Shown here: piece after piece, positions 595 through 11,100 of the stretch
Layout: the number at the start of each line of letters is the position of its first letter
Position numbering within the stretch: the stretch's first letter is position 1
Source of the DNA: Pseudobacteriovorax sp.
GTDB lineage: Bacteria > Bdellovibrionota_B > Oligoflexia > Oligoflexales > Oligoflexaceae
NCBI GenBank assembly: GCA_050293845.1
Contig: JBNKNM010000189.1
Location: 1 to 11,100, forward strand
Direction of reading: 5' to 3'
DNA: 11,100 nucleotides
The notes under the pieces: model-generated
The model's input: only the letters and a program-made list of their open reading frames with translations
Told to the model about the DNA's origin: nothing
Database searches by the model: none
Made by a program: the position numbers and the translations under genes

Positions 595-2370
595 ATGGAA
601 AAATCTCCTCATAGGCTAAAAGAGCTGCTGAGTTACAGTAAAGAGCATAAAAGATTGATGCTCAGTGCAGGAATTTTCTCAGTCGTCAATAAGATCTTTG
701 ATATATTTCCGGAAATTCTAATTGGGGTAGCCATTGATGTTGTTGTAAAAAAGGAAGATAGCTTCTTAGGTAGCATTGGTATTGAAAATGTTGAACATCA
801 GCTCGCCTTTTTGGCCATTGTGACATTTTTGATCTGGCTGTGTGAATCCCTGACAGAGTATGGCGCTATCGTCAGGTGGAGGAATATAGCCCAAGAAGTG
901 CAACATAAATTACGCATCCACGGTATCAGTCATCTCCAAAAATTGAGCCTTTCCTGGTACGAAGAACAGAATTCAGGTCAGCTATTATCTATACTCAACG
1001 ACGATGTAAACCAGATAGAGCGATTTCTCAATGAAGGTTTACATAGTTTGATAAAACTCCTTGTATCTTCAGTTCTTATTGGTTGTGTTTTCTTCTATTT
1101 ATCGCCAATGGTAGCTTGTTTTGCCATATTACCAATCCCTATTATCATTGCTGGTGGATTACGATTTCGCGATCGTTTATCCGGAAGCTACAGCTTGGTC
1201 AGGAGTCGTGCCGCTGAATTGGGAGAAAAGCTATCAGGAACCATTCAGGGGGTTGTGACTATTCGTGCTGCTGTTGCTGAGCAAACCATGATCGATAAAG
1301 TGAGTCGGGCTAGCGAGGCATATATTGAAGCCAACCGCACGGCGATTAAATTAAGCTCAGCTTTTGTGCCGGTGATTCGGATGGCCGTGCTTGCTGGATT
1401 TTTGGTGACTCTGGTGTTAGGAGGTTTGAAGACACTGAATGGCGAACTGGCTGCATCAGCATATACTGTTTTGGTTTTTCTTACCCAAAGACTATTGTGG
1501 CCCTTCACGAGTTTTGGTGACATGTTAGATCTATATGAGCGTTCCATGGCTTCGGCGATGAGAGTTTTTAGGCTCATTAATGAACCTGCACCGATAGAAC
1601 AAGCTAAGACTCTCAAAACCACTCATAGTATCAAAGGAGAAATCAGCTTTGAAAATTTAGGCTTTGCATATAAACCGGGATATCCTGTTTTGGAAAATTT
1701 TAACCTCGCTATAAAAGCGGGAGAATTTGTGGGTATTGTGGGTCCTACCGGCTCTGGCAAAAGTACCCTAGTAAAATTGCTACTGAGGTTTTATGAAGCC
1801 AATGAAGGAATGATAAAAATAGATGGTATCGATCTCACCCAACTTCATACCAAACATTTAAGAAGTTCAATAGGCTATGTGGGACAGGATATTTTTCTGA
1901 TGGATTCTTCCATCAGTGAAAATTTGTTGTTAGGTAAGCAGAAAATCACCCATAAGGACATGGAGGCAGCTCTTAAGGTTGCTGATGCTAGAAACTTTGT
2001 TTGGCAACTTCCGGAAAAGCTAAAAACCAAAATTGGTGAAAGGGGGCAAAAGTTATCAGGAGGCCAAAGACAAAGATTAACCATTGCCAGAGGAGTACTG
2101 GGGAATCCCCCTATCCTAATTTTCGATGAAGCGACCTCAGCCGTTGATAATGAGACTGAAGAAGCCATACAAAAGTCCATTGCTAGCCTGGCCAAAGGTC
2201 GTACTATGATTGTTATCGCCCATCGGCTGTCTACTATTCGCCATGCCGATAATATTTTGGTGCTCGATAAAGGTAAGCTCGTACAGCAAGGAAGTCATGA
2301 AAAGCTATGCGATGAAGATGGACTTTACAAAAATTTATGGAATCTTCAGACCGGTAATTCTCAGCTATAG
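595..2370 (+). CDS. ABC exporter half-transporter (fused TMD-NBD, MsbA/ABCB-like)
   Basis: Hydrophobic N-terminal TM segments, Walker A GPTGSGKST, Q-loop VGQD, signature LSGGQ, Walker B ILIFDE and H-loop IAHR. ATG 595 (after AAGGTAG) is preferred over the track's TTG at 532. Confidence 0.95.
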   Translation: MEKSPHRLKELLSYSKEHKRLMLSAGIFSVVNKIFDIFPEILIGVAIDVVVKKEDSFLGSIGIENVEHQLAFLAIVTFLIWLCESLTEYGAIVRWRNIAQEVQHKLRIHGISHLQKLSLSWYEEQNSGQLLSILNDDVNQIERFLNEGLHSLIKLLVSSVLIGCVFFYLSPMVACFAILPIPIIIAGGLRFRDRLSGSYSLVRSRAAELGEKLSGTIQGVVTIRAAVAEQTMIDKVSRASEAYIEANRTAIKLSSAFVPVIRMAVLAGFLVTLVLGGLKTLNGELAASAYTVLVFLTQRLLWPFTSFGDMLDLYERSMASAMRVFRLINEPAPIEQAKTLKTTHSIKGEISFENLGFAYKPGYPVLENFNLAIKAGEFVGIVGPTGSGKSTLVKLLLRFYEANEGMIKIDGIDLTQLHTKHLRSSIGYVGQDIFLMDSSISENLLLGKQKITHKDMEAALKVADARNFVWQLPEKLKTKIGERGQKLSGGQRQRLTIARGVLGNPPILIFDEATSAVDNETEEAIQKSIASLAKGRTMIVIAHRLSTIRHADNILVLDKGKLVQQGSHEKLCDEDGLYKNLWNLQTGNSQL

Positions 2371-7272: not shown

Positions 7273-7493
7273 AACGGGTAGCCACTTCACCTCCAACTCG
7301 CTAGTTTCAATAAGGTTTTAGGACTAGCTATAATCCCTACCGGATAGGGAAGCCTTTCAAGCAATCATTTCTGCTTCATCAGATTATTAATTAAAATATT
7401 TTAATTTTGACTTTTTAATTTATAGTATATCTGCAATATATTCCTATGAGCCACATCCCTTACCTACATTGTACTCTTAATGCGAGGGAAAAA

Positions 7494-9749
7494 GTGAAAA
7501 TTTTAAGCAGCATAGCAGTATTTTTGCCACTGTTACTGATCATCTCCTGCGGTGCCAAGATGGATTCTAAGGCTAGTAATCCTAGTAATCTTTCTATTTA
7601 TGGGGGACATCCGACAGCACCAGGGGATTGGCTAGGTGTAGTTTCACTACGCCGTGAGGGGTATCCCTTCTGTACGGGAACCCTTATCCACCCTAAGCTG
7701 GTTGTAACAGCTGCACACTGCATGGGAGGTATATCCTCGAATAATATAGATTCACTTTCCGTTGTTTTTGGCAACGGGAGTGCAGAAGAACTCTGGGGAG
7801 AAAAAATTAAATCTTTTGGTGTCCATCCAGATTTCAACCTTACAAAGCGCCCAGACAAGAAAGACTCCATGGGTTACGCAAATGACATCGCCTATATCAT
7901 TTTGGAAGAGGACACACACGGCATAACCCCCCTGACCGTATTAACAGACGTCAGCGCAAGGGAGACCCTACTAAAGCAGGGAACTTCTGTGACCTTAGTA
8001 GGTTACGGGCAAACAGAAACGGGGCTTACAGGCATAAAATACGAAGTTGATACCCGTATTACCAACGACCAAAACGGTAATGAGATCCTGGCTGGAGCGA
8101 ATGGTAAAGATACCTGTTACGGCGATAGTGGCGGACCTGCCATCGCTTACGGGGCGGAAGGTGAGCCTCTGATTTTTGGAGTGACCTCAAGAAGCCCCTT
8201 TGAATGTGGAAAAAAAGATACTATTTACGGGCTCATTCATCCACATCTCTGCTGGATTGCAGAGGCTTCTGATGTTATATCCGACCTCGACTTCACCCGT
8301 AGCTTTCCCGATATTCACTGCAACGAACAAACGAATGCCCAGGTAAACTATGATTTTGTCGCATCATGTTTAGACTCCTACAACTTGGACGTCAGGGAAG
8401 CCCTTAGCTTCCGGGCTTTAAAAGCGCGTTATGAGGAAGACGATTGTAATGAATTACACATAAAATTATCCAGCACGCAGCATTTAGATCTCGAAAACTT
8501 GCTTTTTAAAGATCTCAACTTCCTTACAGGGCTTGCTCCCGAGACTTTATCATTAGAAAACAATAGTATAGAAGATATCCATTCGTATGTAAAAAACAAG
8601 TCCTTAAAAAACCTCAAAGCCGCTCATAATAAAATAAAACAATTGCCTGATTTTAGCTTTAATAGTCAGCTGCAATCCTTGGACATTTCCCACAATAGGG
8701 TAAAATCCCTCATGGGCTTGACTCAGGCCAATCAATTGAAAACATTGTCCATTGCTAATAATAAACTGGAATCGACCGACGGCATCGCCCAAGCTCCCCA
8801 TATAAAACAGCTAGATCTGTATGCCAACAGAATCGAACAACTAACTGGGGTGGAGAATCTTAAGGAACTTGAATCCATAAACTTTTCACACAACATGGTT
8901 TTGCAAATTGATCAATTAGACGGACTAGAGCAGTTAAGAGAAATCATAGCTGAAAATAATTGTATCGGTTCCCTCAACGGCTTATCGTATCTGCCAAAAT
9001 TGGAAACATTAGAATTAAGCAGCAATTGCATTACAGGGGTACAGAATCTCAGTATTCCCGCAAAATCGATTAACCTGGCAAAAAATTATATTACGGATGC
9101 AGACGGTATCATCGATATACAAACACTAGAATCCCTTGACCTCTCCAACAACAAAATCGAGCAGTTGCATTTCATCGATCATACTCCCCTTGAGTCACTG
9201 GTATTGAATTTCAACCAAATCAAGACAATCTCTGGATCAGCAAGTAACTTAGAAAGGCTAGAGCTGGTAGCAAACGAGATCAAAGATATATCGTTTGTTG
9301 AAAATTTGAAGAAGCTTAGTTCGCTCCATCTTGTCGATAACCTCATACAAGATTACACCCCCTTAAAAAAATTAGACCGACTATCCCAAGTTGCTTTAAC
9401 GTACGATAGAAATATAAACTTCCAAAATGATTTGGTACAAAGCTTAAAACAGAAGGGTGTGCAAGTAGATCTTTATGTAACATTCAGATTGCAGAGGTTT
9501 CAAGCAGCATTGGCAAGCCAGTATCCTCGTTTTGGAACACAGGGTGCAAATATAGCCGAAATCGTAATTGCATTGGCTCTTATCAATGAAACTGATTTAA
9601 TCTGGGAAATCAATGAACACGGTACTTATATGGAATTTCTTGATTTAGTTATAAATGCCCTTTTCGAATCAATCGATGAGGATACTTTCCGATTAAAAAA
9701 ACCTGAACAAAACTTATTTGTATCTTTTGCAGCACAGGAGTCAAACTGA
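7494..9749 (+). CDS. Lipoprotein with S1 trypsin-like serine protease domain fused to leucine-rich repeats
   Basis: GTG 7494 after GAGGG gives MKILSSIAVFLPLLLIISC (lipobox-like). IYGG activation motif at 7596, catalytic triad motifs TAAHC / NDIA / GDSGGP, then about 14 LxxLxLxxNxI repeats of about 22 aa. The track start is 7446. Confidence 0.92.
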   Translation: MKILSSIAVFLPLLLIISCGAKMDSKASNPSNLSIYGGHPTAPGDWLGVVSLRREGYPFCTGTLIHPKLVVTAAHCMGGISSNNIDSLSVVFGNGSAEELWGEKIKSFGVHPDFNLTKRPDKKDSMGYANDIAYIILEEDTHGITPLTVLTDVSARETLLKQGTSVTLVGYGQTETGLTGIKYEVDTRITNDQNGNEILAGANGKDTCYGDSGGPAIAYGAEGEPLIFGVTSRSPFECGKKDTIYGLIHPHLCWIAEASDVISDLDFTRSFPDIHCNEQTNAQVNYDFVASCLDSYNLDVREALSFRALKARYEEDDCNELHIKLSSTQHLDLENLLFKDLNFLTGLAPETLSLENNSIEDIHSYVKNKSLKNLKAAHNKIKQLPDFSFNSQLQSLDISHNRVKSLMGLTQANQLKTLSIANNKLESTDGIAQAPHIKQLDLYANRIEQLTGVENLKELESINFSHNMVLQIDQLDGLEQLREIIAENNCIGSLNGLSYLPKLETLELSSNCITGVQNLSIPAKSINLAKNYITDADGIIDIQTLESLDLSNNKIEQLHFIDHTPLESLVLNFNQIKTISGSASNLERLELVANEIKDISFVENLKKLSSLHLVDNLIQDYTPLKKLDRLSQVALTYDRNINFQNDLVQSLKQKGVQVDLYVTFRLQRFQAALASQYPRFGTQGANIAEIVIALALINETDLIWEINEHGTYMEFLDLVINALFESIDEDTFRLKKPEQNLFVSFAAQESN
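8476..9400 (+). repeat. Leucine-rich repeat array (internalin/SDS22-like, protein-level)
   Basis: Examples are LQSLDISHNRVKSL, LKTLSIANNKLES, IKQLDLYANRIEQL, LETLELSSNCITGV and LESLDLSNNKIEQL. Boundaries are approximate. Confidence 0.9.
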
Positions 9750-10015
9750 TGAGAATTATATTTTGGGGGATACTAGCAGCGATAACCATGACTTCTTGTT
9801 CGGGAGGATCCAGTAATACATCAAAGAAGAGCCCACCACCTATCCAGGAAAATTCTATTAGCTTAGTAGGCTGCGACGAATTTGATTATGACAGTGAAGA
9901 TATTACGGTTTATGCATTAACGGGAATCATCAAGCGCAATCGCGAAAAACTGAAAAATAAAAGCTTTTCAGAGATTTTTCAAGCGATTAATAAGAGCTGT
10001 ACAAAGCCCAGCTAG
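9749..10015 (+). CDS. Small hypothetical lipoprotein (88 aa)
   Basis: The ATG overlaps the upstream stop (TGATG). MRIIFWGILAAITMTSC is a lipoprotein-type signal, followed by a Ser/Gly/Pro linker and two further Cys. Confidence 0.75.
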   Translation: MRIIFWGILAAITMTSCSGGSSNTSKKSPPPIQENSISLVGCDEFDYDSEDITVYALTGIIKRNREKLKNKSFSEIFQAINKSCTKPS

Positions 10016-10053
10016 ATGATGTTATGGTGATTACTTAGTCAAGCATTCCCCAT

Positions 10054-10100
10054 AAAAGCTGTCCATCGGCAATCCCAAACAGTGATTGCTGATGGACAGC
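10054..10100 (-). terminator. Long hairpin between convergent genes (probable intrinsic terminator)
   Basis: GCTGTCCATCGGCAATC (10058-10074) / GATTGCTGATGGACAGC (10084-10100), a 17-bp stem with one non-Watson-Crick position and a 9-nt loop. It is followed by UUUU on the minus strand. Confidence 0.6.
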
Positions 10101-10154
10101 GAACCGCTACAAGTAGCAGCGAGGATTTTTCGACTTTATCGCAACTTGAGCATG

Positions 10155-10939
10155 CTAAAGTAATACCGTAAACACAAAAACCCTACCTTCACTTCCAAAC
10201 GGCCCTTGCACCTGTTCGAAGTGCTGGACAGCTCTATCGTCATTTATCACAATATCCAATTCCCAGTTGACATTATCAACAACCATTTCGATGGTATTAT
10301 TTTCAATATATAGATCCCTTACAATCAATGGAATCACACCAATAACAGCTCCACTGCAGTCAGCTGAAGCATAGATCTCATTCTGAACTATTGGTAAGAT
10401 CCTAACTCCAAAGTTAACTTGAACGAGCTTTAGCACAACAAAAAAGCTCTCCAATGCTGAGATGCTCTCACATTGGGACTTAATAGTTCGATTGACTAAA
10501 TCTGGATACCCTTGTCGCCACTTCAATATTCTAATTTGTGGTTCGGTTAGTCCATTGCTATCCACCCCTTGGAGACAAAGCTCCACATCACCATGAAAAT
10601 CATGTAAATCTAGAAATAGTTCTTTTGAAGACTGCTATGAATCATCCACGAACTAACTTGCTCGCAATCTTGACTAATCGTGTATTTAATCGACTCAACA
10701 CCAATTTCTAGAAAACTCAAACTAACGAACCTAGACCTATTGAAACCCTCTTCCGGCCATCCAGTGACTTCATATCGCCCCGAATAACCATCAACCTCAA
10801 TACTGTCACCTTCCTCGGAAACTTGCCCTTCGACAGCAGGAAGATCTTCAACTCCCCGTATGAACGATTCATTACTAATTAACCTACTGTTCTTACACAA
10901 CGAAATAAGTAATAGTGTAAATAAAGCGTATTTTAACAT
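10155..10939 (-). pseudogene. Single secreted/lipoprotein gene split by a 1-nt frameshift (ORFs 10610-10939 and 10155-10586)
   Basis: The downstream frame is open from 10634 and overlaps the upstream ORF. Adding one base to the T4 run at 10623-10626 joins them into ...WMIHSSLQKELFLDLHDFHGDVELCLQGVDSNG... (261 aa). Only the upstream ORF has a signal peptide. Confidence 0.7.
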
Positions 10940-11001
10940 ATCCCATACTCACTATATTACCATTATGTTATTTTAGGATATCGGAGATGATTTTGGCTTA
11001 A

Positions 11002-11100
11002 GTCAATTACCCCCACCTAAAGAAGGGGGCTTGTGAGGTGACTCGCAAGGGAGACTAGTTGACCAGACCACTAGCAAGAAAGGATGTTTAAATACAGTAT
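11002..11100 (+). ncRNA. 5' part of a HEARO/omegaRNA scaffold (end of an IS200/IS605 IscB/IsrB element), truncated by the window edge
   Basis: GTCAATTACCCCCACCTAAAGAAGGGGGCTTG...TAGTTGACCAGAC matches the GTCAAYnACCCC..TAAA..GGGCTTG..GTTGACCAG pattern I recall for HEARO/omegaRNA 5' ends. GTCAATTA (11002-11009) pairs with TAGTTGAC (11056-11063), enclosing a CCCCC/GGGGG hairpin (11010-11029) and a CTTGTGAG-GTGA-CTCGCAAG GNRA hairpin (11030-11049). Confidence 0.75.

What the first reader, a model, noticed from the sequence alone, without database searches (positions are those of the whole stretch)
11002..11100. 5' end of an OMEGA (IscB/IsrB) omegaRNA / HEARO RNA at the window edge
Seen: an abrupt switch from AT-rich intergenic DNA to a GC-richer three-way junction. 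It has a closing stem GTCAATTA/TAGTTGAC (one G-U), a CCCCC-ACCTAAAGAA-GGGGG hairpin and an 8-bp hairpin with a GNRA (GUGA) tetraloop, followed by CAGAC. Known: IS200/IS605 elements encoding IscB/IsrB (Cas9 ancestors) start with an omegaRNA whose 5' end has this GTCAA...CCCC...TAAA...GGGGCTTG...TTGACCAG layout, and the subterminal hairpin also serves as the TnpA-recognised end. Inference: an RNA-guided nuclease element, or a stand-alone trans-acting omegaRNA/non-autonomous copy, begins at 11002. The class is known, but this member may be uncharacterised.
Basis: partly seen in the sequence, partly recalled or inferred. Interest (0 to 1): 0.8.

Follow-up and report, generated by a model that had tools for sequence, protein, structure and literature searches.

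The report
Start of an IscB guide RNA
The last 99 bases of the window are the beginning of the guide-RNA scaffold of a jumping gene that carries IscB, the small ancestor of Cas9; the kind is well known, and this genome holds several dozen near-identical copies of it.

Summary
The observation and the interpretation both hold. Window 11002-11100 matches positions 1-92 of the 211-position Rfam HEARO model (the omegaRNA of IscB). The match is cut at its 3' side because the window is a whole contig that ends inside a repeat. A 99%-identical sister copy matches the whole model at 119.7 bits (cut-off 83) and runs into an IscB start 306 nt after the boundary. Of 35 BLAST matches in the genome, 32 start at the same G of GTCAA, each with a different upstream flank. 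The named three-way junction shows compensatory changes. The family's intact protein is in public collections: 442 aa, 342.7 bits on NCBIfam guided_IscB (cut-off 175), with an HNH domain, so it is IscB and not IsrB. The far end of the element abuts ATGAA in 41 of 44 cases. That is the reverse complement of the TTCAT motif published for Geobacillus IscB. This is a new member of a known kind. Whether this copy is full length cannot be read, because the contig ends. In passing: half of the copies sit exactly on host start codons.

The parts
10982..11001 (+). Flank directly 5' of the element. It is the predicted guide segment of this copy's omegaRNA (roughly the last 16-20 nt). This is inferred, not shown.
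   Evidence: IscB omegaRNAs carry the guide 5' of the scaffold and are transcribed from outside the element (Meers et al. bioRxiv 2023, passages). The flanks differ in 23 of 23 copies inspected.
11002..11100 (+). The first 99 nt of the omegaRNA (HEARO) scaffold. This is also the omegaRNA-side terminus of the IscB IS200/IS605-type element. It is cut off by the contig end.
   Evidence: RF02033 model positions 1-92 of 211, 31.6 bits, E 3.1e-5, 3'-truncated. It is 98 of 99 identical to the C10 copy, which scores 119.7 bits over the whole model.
11002..11063 (+). Three-way junction: closing stem 11002-11009 with 11056-11063, hairpin 1 at 11010-11029, hairpin 2 with a GUGA loop at 11030-11049.
   Evidence: The minimum-energy fold gives this junction. 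Covariation count: 13 of 23 pairs change on both sides and 88% of cells pair.
11010..11029 (+). Subterminal hairpin. It is the likely transposase-recognised palindrome of this end (inferred). The private G-to-A change lies at 11023.
   Evidence: Read from the sequence. The NC line of the cmscan alignment flags the mismatch. The role in TnpA recognition rests on established IS200/IS605 knowledge and was not tested.
11066..11070 (+). 5' strand (GACCA) of the HEARO pseudoknot. Its 3' partner lies beyond the contig end.
   Evidence: The cmscan structure lines mark these positions as the pseudoknot strand. In the C10 copy the partner UGGUC is present.

Best explanation
Window 11002-11100 is the first 99 nt of the omegaRNA (Rfam HEARO) scaffold. 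It lies at the omegaRNA-side end of a non-autonomous IS200/IS605-family element that encodes a 442-aa IscB RNA-guided nuclease. By inference from joined pieces, the full element is about 1.63 kb: 306 nt of omegaRNA and leader, then 442 codons that run to the last bases of the element. This genome holds several dozen near-identical copies, and that is why the contig stops here. The likely mechanism follows published IscB work and was not shown here. Transcription enters from the flank, so the 16-20 nt before 11002 become the guide. IscB with this RNA recognises the flank sequence followed by ATGAA, which is the joint left when the transposase excises the element. It cuts that joint, so that recombination with a sister chromosome restores the copy. 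A Y1 transposase supplied in trans moves the element.
For: A HEARO hit starts at 11002 and is 3'-truncated by the contig end. The window equals the whole contig C189. The C10 copy matches the full model at 119.7 bits, and C275 and C14 match at 99 and 98 bits, against a cut-off of 83. The family rang in 0 of 14 control genomes. The C10 copy continues into MLAFVLNRHG..., and contig C321 continues with PLMP, RuvC-I and the RRXRR segment (RRXRR 189 bits; guided_IscB 200 bits). P0002 (442 aa) joins these pieces. Its residues 297-434 are 137 of 138 identical to C462, and its last 21-23 residues are identical to the reading of more than 20 contig ends. It scores 342.7 bits on NF040563 against a cut-off of 175 and carries RRXRR and HNH domains. 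Its best solved relatives are IscB structures at E 1e-35 to 1e-37, and the alignment printed for the best of them (11hr) keeps the RuvC-I Asp, the HNH His pair and the RuvC-III His/Asp. 6 of the 8 members of its cluster are 442 aa. 32 of 35 matches share base 1, and 26 of those 32 lie at contig ends. 41 of 44 far ends are followed by ATGAA, and 32 of them lie at contig starts. In run X1, Logan contigs of the element parts have word depth 357-409 against about 7-9 for the unique flank. One 535-nt contig at depth 357 runs 327 nt further into iscB. HEARO lies upstream of iscB in 6 of 7 related loci. Meers et al. (passages) describe HEARO upstream of iscB bounded by the transposon end, a TTCAT TAM for Geobacillus IscB, and transcription that starts outside the element. 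The genome has 23 Y1 transposase matches.
Against: The fragment in the window scores 31.6 bits, below the family cut-off of 83, and the gathering-threshold scan of the window found nothing. The call therefore rests on the sister copy. No intact iscB is present in the 741 contigs of this assembly. Only a 173-aa N-terminal piece (C321), a C-terminal piece preceded by two in-frame stops (C462) and two internally deleted 193-aa frames (C14, C275) are there. P0002 comes from a public record whose source is hidden, so its link to this organism rests on sequence identity alone. The tool warns that summed contig depth is not a copy number. No cognate transposase was identified: short-word BLAST of both element ends against the surroundings of 8 tnpA genes gave only 10-nt matches at E 0.4. 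No sigma-70-like promoter was found in 10500-11100, and the nearest upstream ORF runs on the opposite strand.
Confidence: 0.9

Rival explanations
1. This copy is not a full element. It is a truncated or ORF-less derivative: a solo omegaRNA end or a miniature non-autonomous element that carries the omegaRNA start but no iscB.
For: Such derivatives exist in the same genome. C96 holds a copy cut after element base 159. C99 holds a mini element that joins omegaRNA bases 9-114 directly to the far end. C387 (453 nt) and C67 (435 nt) have an omegaRNA plus the far end and no ORF. C14 (886 nt) and C275 (881 nt) carry a 193-aa frame that lacks the bridge helix, RuvC-II and HNH. The contig ends 99 nt into the element, so nothing downstream can be read.
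Against: The derivatives that could be read are the diverged ones, at 71-88% identity over the 338-nt query where alignable. The window copy is 98 of 99 identical to the young family. Contig depths in run X1 are similar for the omegaRNA start (about 400), the iscB N-terminal region (357) and the C-terminal region (409), so most young copies seem to carry all these parts (depth is a rough measure).
Confidence: 0.15
2. The family is a set of dead relics. The omegaRNA start is real by descent, but no active IscB is made in this organism, so the RNA no longer guides anything.
For: Every iscB piece in the assembly is broken or deleted. The two mini frames evolve almost neutrally, with dN/dS 0.82. 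No listed run that holds this stretch is on record as RNA.
Against: Dozens of ends are 97-100% identical, which points to recent spread. An intact 442-aa frame with all catalytic motifs, identical to the assembled pieces, exists in 6 of 8 cluster members. A high-copy interior tends to be lost from binned short-read assemblies, so its absence from these contigs says little (inference).
Confidence: 0.12
3. The structure is a chance fold or belongs to another RNA class, such as a riboswitch or a terminator-like repeat, and has nothing to do with IscB.
For: The fragment alone is below the Rfam cut-off.
Against: The full-model match of the 99%-identical copy, the iscB start downstream, the covariation and the shared boundary all speak against it.
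Confidence: 0.01

Closest known systems
HEARO RNA (Rfam RF02033), the omegaRNA of IscB/IsrB
   Same: It starts with the same GUCAA, and has the same three-way junction, the same pseudoknot strand and the same position upstream of iscB. The sister copy scores 119.7 bits against a cut-off of 83.
   Different: Only model positions 1-92 lie in the window. Hairpin 2 is longer than the model consensus (8 pairs with a GUGA loop, shown as an insertion in the cmscan alignment). The window copy has one mismatch in hairpin 1.
ISGst5 / GstIscB of Geobacillus stearothermophilus (Meers et al., bioRxiv 2023.03.14.532601; passages read)
   Same: It is a non-autonomous IS200/IS605-type element with HEARO upstream of iscB and bounded by the transposon end. 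The adjacent motif is the same: TTCAT there, and its reverse complement ATGAA after 41 of 44 far ends here. ORF-less relatives (PATE-like) occur in both.
   Different: The host is different and the copy number is far higher here. The proteins were not compared directly, because no GstIscB sequence was at hand. The orientation bias relative to the upstream gene reported there is not evident here: 11 same, 8 opposite, 4 none among 23 flanks.
OgeuIscB and other solved IscB-omegaRNA complexes (PDB 7xht, 7utn, 11hr)
   Same: The domain order is the same, and phmmer gives E 1e-35 to 1e-37. In the printed alignment to 11hr the catalytic residues align.
   Different: P0002 is shorter (442 aa against 495-496 aa). 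Similarity is moderate. No structure was predicted here.
IsrB (the HNH-less relative that also uses HEARO-like RNA; PDB 8dmb)
   Same: It shares the PLMP/RuvC N-terminal part and the omegaRNA class (E 7.7e-13).
   Different: The family protein here has a clear HNH domain (46.2 bits), so it is not IsrB.

Membership tests
HEARO / omegaRNA (RF02033) | Covariance-model score at or above the curated cut-off (83 bits) | tested here: inconclusive
   The window fragment scores 31.6 bits and is 3'-truncated, and the gathering scan found nothing. The 99%-identical C10 copy scores 119.7 bits over model 1-211. The family-level test is therefore met and the fragment-level test cannot be.
HEARO / omegaRNA (RF02033) | Three-way junction at the 5' end supported by compensatory changes | tested here: met
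   88% of cells pair, 13 of 23 pairs change on both sides, and 0 of 500 shuffles reach this. Slid controls give 26-49% paired.
HEARO / omegaRNA (RF02033) | Lies directly upstream of iscB or isrB on the same strand | not testable with these tools
   The contig ends at 11100. The feature is met in the sister copy C10 and in 6 of 7 related loci.
HEARO / omegaRNA (RF02033) | Made as a stable RNA with a 5' guide taken from the flank | not testable with these tools
   No listed run that holds this stretch is on record as RNA.
IscB (NCBIfam NF040563 guided_IscB) | Equivalog model score at or above 175 bits | tested here: met
   P0002 scores 342.7 bits. The C321 fragment scores 200-203 bits. P0002 is tied to this family by identity to C10, C321, C462 and the contig ends.
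IscB (NCBIfam NF040563 guided_IscB) | PLMP/RRXRR segment, split RuvC and an HNH domain with catalytic residues | tested here: met
   RRXRR 203.1 bits, HNH 46.2 bits, HNH_5 35.4 bits. The Asp of LDSGSK, the His pair of HVHH and the H..D of KRHFVDA align with a solved IscB.
IscB (NCBIfam NF040563 guided_IscB) | An intact gene in this genome, behind this omegaRNA | not testable with these tools
   The assembly holds only broken or deleted pieces, and the contig ends at 11100.
IsrB | No HNH domain | tested here: not met
   The HNH domain is present in P0002.
IS200/IS605 family element | Many copies with sharp, identical ends and unrelated flanks | tested here: met
   32 of 35 matches start at base 1. 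23 of 23 flanks differ. 44 far ends were found.
IS200/IS605 family element | Subterminal hairpins at both ends instead of terminal inverted repeats | tested here: met
   The omegaRNA-side hairpin lies at 11010-11029. The far end reads CCCGGCC-CTAAAGA-GACCGGG nested in CTTCTCCA...TGGAGAAG (read from the sequence).
IS200/IS605 family element | A fixed short motif next to one end and no target-site duplication | tested here: met
   ATGAA follows 41 of 44 far ends. No direct repeat flanks 4 of 4 complete internal copies.
IS200/IS605 family element | A Y1 (HUH) TnpA transposase that acts on these ends | tested here: inconclusive
   The genome has 23 PF01797 matches, and 7 or more have open frames of 113-169 aa. 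None is next to these ends, and end similarity is weak. tnpA elements on C31 and C232 have an end of like layout but followed by TGATAA.

The most novel reading that the evidence does not exclude
This IscB family, and a good part of its wider clade, is specialised to sit exactly on host start codons. The adjacent motif ATGAA is the ATG plus the first two bases of a Lys or Asn codon. In this family the element's last bases supply GGAG 7 nt before that ATG, and the iscB stop codon is completed by the A of ATGAA (TG|A). The host gene would then stay translated, by the donated ribosome site or by coupling to iscB. The host promoter and 5' UTR would in turn supply the transcript and the guide for the omegaRNA. 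The result would be a transposon and host-gene arrangement of mutual dependence rather than a neutral landing site.
Probability: 0.4. Interest if true: 0.6.

Novelty: new member of a known kind. Interest (0 to 1): 0.35.

Why it matters
The finding itself is a correct recognition of a known class, so it adds a member and not a principle. The family still has some practical value. It is a compact IscB (442 aa, about 300 nt of RNA) that has reached several dozen near-identical copies in one genome, which suggests a currently active nuclease, RNA and transposase set that could be tested as an editing tool. The start-codon pattern, if it reflects selection and not only motif choice, would explain how these elements obtain transcription of an RNA whose guide lies outside the element, and why they are tolerated. 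Meers et al. raise the question of how that transcript arises from outside the element in the passages I read.

Tried and rejected
- The gathering-threshold Rfam scan of the whole window found 0 families. This is explained by the truncation.
- No contig overlaps the end of C10, so the element could not be walked through the assembly.
- DNA search of 30 relatives: only the congener G001 matched, with four matches of 31-34 nt to the terminal hairpin.
- Search of G001 with window 8000-11001 for an empty site found nothing, so the insertion could not be dated or its empty site shown.
- No RNA holder was listed among 4 runs of one study.
- Laying Logan contigs on the C275 copy left positions 666-950 at low depth. 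That part differs between C275 and the young family and says nothing about the HNH region.
- The promoter and terminator scan of 10500-11100 found 0 sites.
- Short-word BLAST of both element ends against the surroundings of 8 tnpA genes gave only 10-nt matches at E 0.4.
- RNAalifold on alignment A1 predicted no pairs, because some rows are poorly aligned. I then counted the named structure instead.
- Earlier findings of the scan were not open.
- The idea that the 193-aa frames of C14 and C275 are a selected nuclease-dead mini-IscB was set aside, since dN/dS is 0.82.
The names I give those ORFs are therefore recalled likenesses only.
- Literature searches for a described link between IscB or HEARO and start codons returned only Meers et al. 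and unrelated papers. In Meers et al. the words Shine-Dalgarno and ribosome binding do not occur, and 'start codon' occurs once, as an axis label. Supplements were not read.

Full report
**What is in the window.** The window is one whole contig (C189, 1-11100) of a 6.68-Mb assembly in 741 contigs, with 41% G+C. Up to about 10940 it carries ordinary chromosomal genes. These include an ABC transporter, GNAT, BlaI-like and TetR-type regulators, a cyclophilin, and a 767-aa trypsin plus leucine-rich-repeat protein.
- a closing stem GTCAATTA/TAGTTGAC with one G-U pair;
- a CCCCC...GGGGG hairpin;
- an 8-pair hairpin with a GUGA loop;
- then CAGACC.

The minimum-energy fold gives this three-way junction at -26.4 kcal/mol, z = -2.94, and 1 of 200 shuffles folds as well.

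**Identification of the RNA.** At Rfam's gathering threshold the window gives nothing. With the permissive threshold, 11002-11100 matches HEARO (RF02033) at model positions 1-92 of 211. The score is 31.6 bits, E 3.1e-5, and the match is flagged as cut at its 3' side. The low score follows from the truncation. In the same genome a copy on contig C10 is 98 of 99 identical over the shared part and matches the whole model at 119.7 bits, against a cut-off of 83. This includes the pseudoknot, whose 5' strand (GACCA, 11066-11070) lies in the window. Two more copies exceed the cut-off: C275 at 99.1 bits and C14 at 98.4 bits. Two fall below it: C387 at 77.5 and C67 at 37. The family rang in 0 of 14 control genomes.

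88% of cells pair, against 26-49% with slid partners. 13 of 23 pairs change on both sides, against 2-6 when slid. 0 of 500 shuffles reach the observed values. RNAalifold itself predicted nothing on this gappy alignment.

**The boundary and the copy number.** A 338-nt query from C10 gives 35 BLAST rows in the genome. 32 begin at element base 1, and 26 of those 32 lie at contig ends. The 40 nt upstream of the boundary are unrelated in 23 of 23 copies found by pattern. The window copy has one private change, G to A at 11023, which makes one C-A mismatch in hairpin 1. Most other contigs reach 74-77 nt into the element, and this one reaches 99 nt. That fits a short-read assembler following a private variant for one word length (inference).

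The other end of the element was found 44 times, 32 of them at contig starts. I laid Logan contigs of two runs that hold the window on the C275 copy. In run X1 the word depths are about 7-9 on unique flank and 357-409 on single element contigs. In run X2 they are about 6 and 150-214. The tool warns that such depth is not a copy number. Taken together with the 32 and 44 ends, I read it as roughly 30-45 copies.

**The protein.**
- In C10 the element runs into ATG TTA GCC... (MLAFVLNRHG) 306 nt after the boundary.
- Contig C321 starts a few codons later with PLMPCK... and carries RuvC-I and the arginine-rich bridge segment for 173 aa before it leaves the element. It scores 189 bits on RRXRR and 200 bits on guided_IscB.
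- C462 carries the RuvC-III motif, the C-terminal domain and the far end.
- The region between them, which holds the HNH domain, is in no contig of the assembly.
- A search of the public protein collection with the C321 piece returned P0002, 442 aa. Its N-terminus equals C10 plus C321. Its residues 297-434 are 137 of 138 identical to C462. Its last 21-23 residues are identical to the reading of more than 20 contig ends.
- P0002 scores 342.7 bits on NF040563 against a cut-off of 175. It has RRXRR (203.1 bits) and HNH (46.2 bits) domains. Its best solved relatives are IscB structures (11hr, 7xht, 7utn; E 1e-35 to 1e-37), and the alignment printed for 11hr has the catalytic residues aligned.
- 6 of the 8 members of its 90% cluster are 442 aa.

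So the family encodes IscB proper, not IsrB, and an intact frame exists. The source of P0002 is hidden, so its tie to this organism rests on identity only. In run X1 a 535-nt contig at depth 357 continues 327 nt into iscB, and its loose end equals the C321 sequence. This shows that the young, abundant family is not the short deleted form. Joining the pieces gives an element of about 306 + 1326 + 2 = 1634 nt (inference).

**The far end and the adjacent motif.** The far end reads ...CTTCTCCATTCCTCCCGGCCCTAAAGAGACCGGGTTTCCTGGAGAAGTTTG, followed by ATGAA and then unrelated sequence. ATGAA follows 41 of 44 ends. These include diverged copies in which the preceding bases differ (TTTA, TTTT, TTGG, CTAA), so the motif is the fixed neighbour and not part of the element. 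4 of 4 complete internal copies show no target-site duplication.

ATGAA is the reverse complement of TTCAT. In the passages I read, Meers et al. (bioRxiv 2023.03.14.532601) give TTCAT as the motif next to the left end of ISGst5 and as the TAM of its IscB. [quoted passage not shown] The genome holds 23 matches to the Y1 transposase family. I could not tell which one serves this element.

**How it most likely works.**
- Shown here: the RNA class, the boundary, the protein family, the motif and the multiplicity.
- Inferred from the published mechanism: the 16-20 nt before 11002 are transcribed with the scaffold and act as the guide. IscB with this RNA cuts the joint made of flank plus ATGAA that excision leaves, and repair from a sister copy restores the element. 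A transposase in trans moves it.
- Open for this copy: whether iscB follows (the contig ends), and what drives transcription. The nearest upstream ORF, 10610-10939, is on the other strand, and no sigma-70-like site was found in 10500-11100.

**Decayed relatives in the same genome.**
- C14 (886 nt) and C275 (881 nt) carry a 193-aa frame in which RuvC-I is fused directly to the RuvC-III motif and the C-terminal domain. The two frames differ with dN/dS 0.82, so they look like drifting relics.
- C387 (453 nt) and C67 (435 nt) have an omegaRNA and the far end but no ORF.
- C99 holds a mini element of about 200 nt, and C96 holds a copy cut after base 159.

It is less likely for the window copy, which belongs to the young, near-identical set.

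**Seen in passing: start codons.** Of 36 far ends found by a strict pattern, the ATG of ATGAA opens a frame of 60 or more codons in 18 and of 100 or more codons in 17. Among 24,091 ATGAA sites in the genome the shares are 19.3% and 14.6%. The binomial p-values are 3.4e-5 and 3.4e-6. 16 of these 18 frames have Pfam families. In most of them the first domain starts at profile position 1-3 within the first 11 residues. Examples are phosphofructokinase at residue 2 with profile position 1, Mur ligase 8 with 1, ribose isomerase 3 with 1, GST 1 with 3, and Hsp70 7 with 2. The ATG is therefore the native start.

The element places GGAG 7 nt before that ATG, and the iscB frame ends in TG|A, completed by the first base of ATGAA. 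Several omegaRNA-side flanks end with a purine-rich run 6-15 nt before the boundary, as if the element had split a host ribosome site from its ATG (read by eye, not tested).

The pattern holds beyond this genome. I took 109 distinct intact iscB loci (330 aa or more, with 400 nt or more downstream) out of 160 loci fetched from other organisms; the other 51 were dropped for length, missing flank or duplication. 41 of the 109 have an ATGAA that opens 80 or more codons within -60 to +150 nt of the iscB stop. The count is 0 of 109 on the opposite strand and 6 of 109 in a window shifted downstream. In 10 of those 41 the stop overlaps the ATG (ATGA). The GGAG is not general in that set.

The names I would give some of those downstream genes (DnaA-, UvrA-, DnaN- and Lon-like N-termini) are recalled likenesses and were not tested, because the step that would have tested them was stopped. 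Purging of insertions inside genes explains part of the excess. Whether the rest reflects selection for host-driven transcription and preserved host translation remains open. Three literature searches found no description of this pattern.

**Verdict.** This is a new member of a known kind, of modest interest in itself, with one side observation worth a wider count.

Noticed in passing
G000 contigs with the element's far end, e.g. C99:17636-17670, C46:79-110, C128:45-75, C192:44-75; related loci L042:3613-3645, L123:1381: Half of the copies (18 of 36) sit directly before a host start codon. The fixed neighbour ATGAA is the ATG plus AA of a Lys or Asn codon, against 19% of all ATGAA sites that open 60 or more codons. 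16 of the 18 frames have Pfam hits, most with N-terminal domains that start at the first residues. Across 109 intact iscB loci of other organisms, 41 show the same pattern, against 0 and 6 in the two controls.
   Followed up: partly
Far end of the element, e.g. L003-type contig starts; sequence: The element's last bases place GGAG 7 nt before the host ATG. The 442-codon iscB frame runs through the terminal hairpin, and its stop TGA is completed by the first A of ATGAA. In 10 of 41 related loci the iscB stop overlaps the downstream ATG as ATGA. This suggests a donated ribosome site or translational coupling. It was not tested.
   Followed up: partly
G000:C14:43954-44532 (-) and G000:C275:455-1033 (-): Two 193-aa frames fuse the PLMP/RuvC-I part directly to the RuvC-III motif and the C-terminal domain, without the bridge helix, RuvC-II or HNH. 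They share the same junction and are each preceded by a full HEARO (98-99 bits). dN/dS between them is 0.82, so they are probably drifting deletion derivatives and not a selected nuclease-dead form.
   Followed up: yes
G000:C387:~1170-1621 (-), G000:C67:~7618-8052 (-), G000:C99:17460-17661 (+), G000:C96:19627-19703: These are ORF-less miniature derivatives: omegaRNA plus far end at 453 and 435 nt, and one mini element of about 200 nt. One further copy is cut after base 159.
   Followed up: partly
G000:C31:71-430, C232:7943-8269, C43:6360-6716, C143:3004-3366 and others: There are 23 matches to the Y1 transposase family. The tnpA genes on C31 and C232 are followed by an end of like layout (hairpin CTGCACC-TGAAGG-AGCAG) but with TGATAA where ATGAA stands here. 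The C387 mini element shares that hairpin yet is followed by ATGAA. Which transposase moves the IscB family is open.
   Followed up: partly
G000:C462:1-1589: This scaffold has an 8-N gap and the same 77-nt stretch on both sides of the element's 3' part, probably a scaffolding artefact at a repeat branch. The stretch before the RuvC-III motif carries two in-frame stops in this copy.
   Followed up: no
G001 (same genus): C125:10828-10861, C143:354-384, C57:1901-1931, C7:8207-8237; G000:C7:32358-32391, C165:135-168: Only the first 31-34 nt (the terminal hairpin) match at 88-94%. These may be ends of other elements that use a like hairpin.
   Followed up: no
Loci L122, L123, L139, L143, L152, L155, L156: Several of the closest named relatives of this IscB (up to 71% over the N-terminal 157 aa) are in Candidatus Anoxychlamydiales genome bins, which hold several copies each. 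One copy (L123) sits on the start of a 433-codon frame whose N-terminus looks DnaA-like by recall.
   Followed up: no
window 7446-9749 (+): This 767-aa protein joins a trypsin-like protease domain (88.7 bits) to leucine-rich repeats. It is unrelated to the finding.
   Followed up: no
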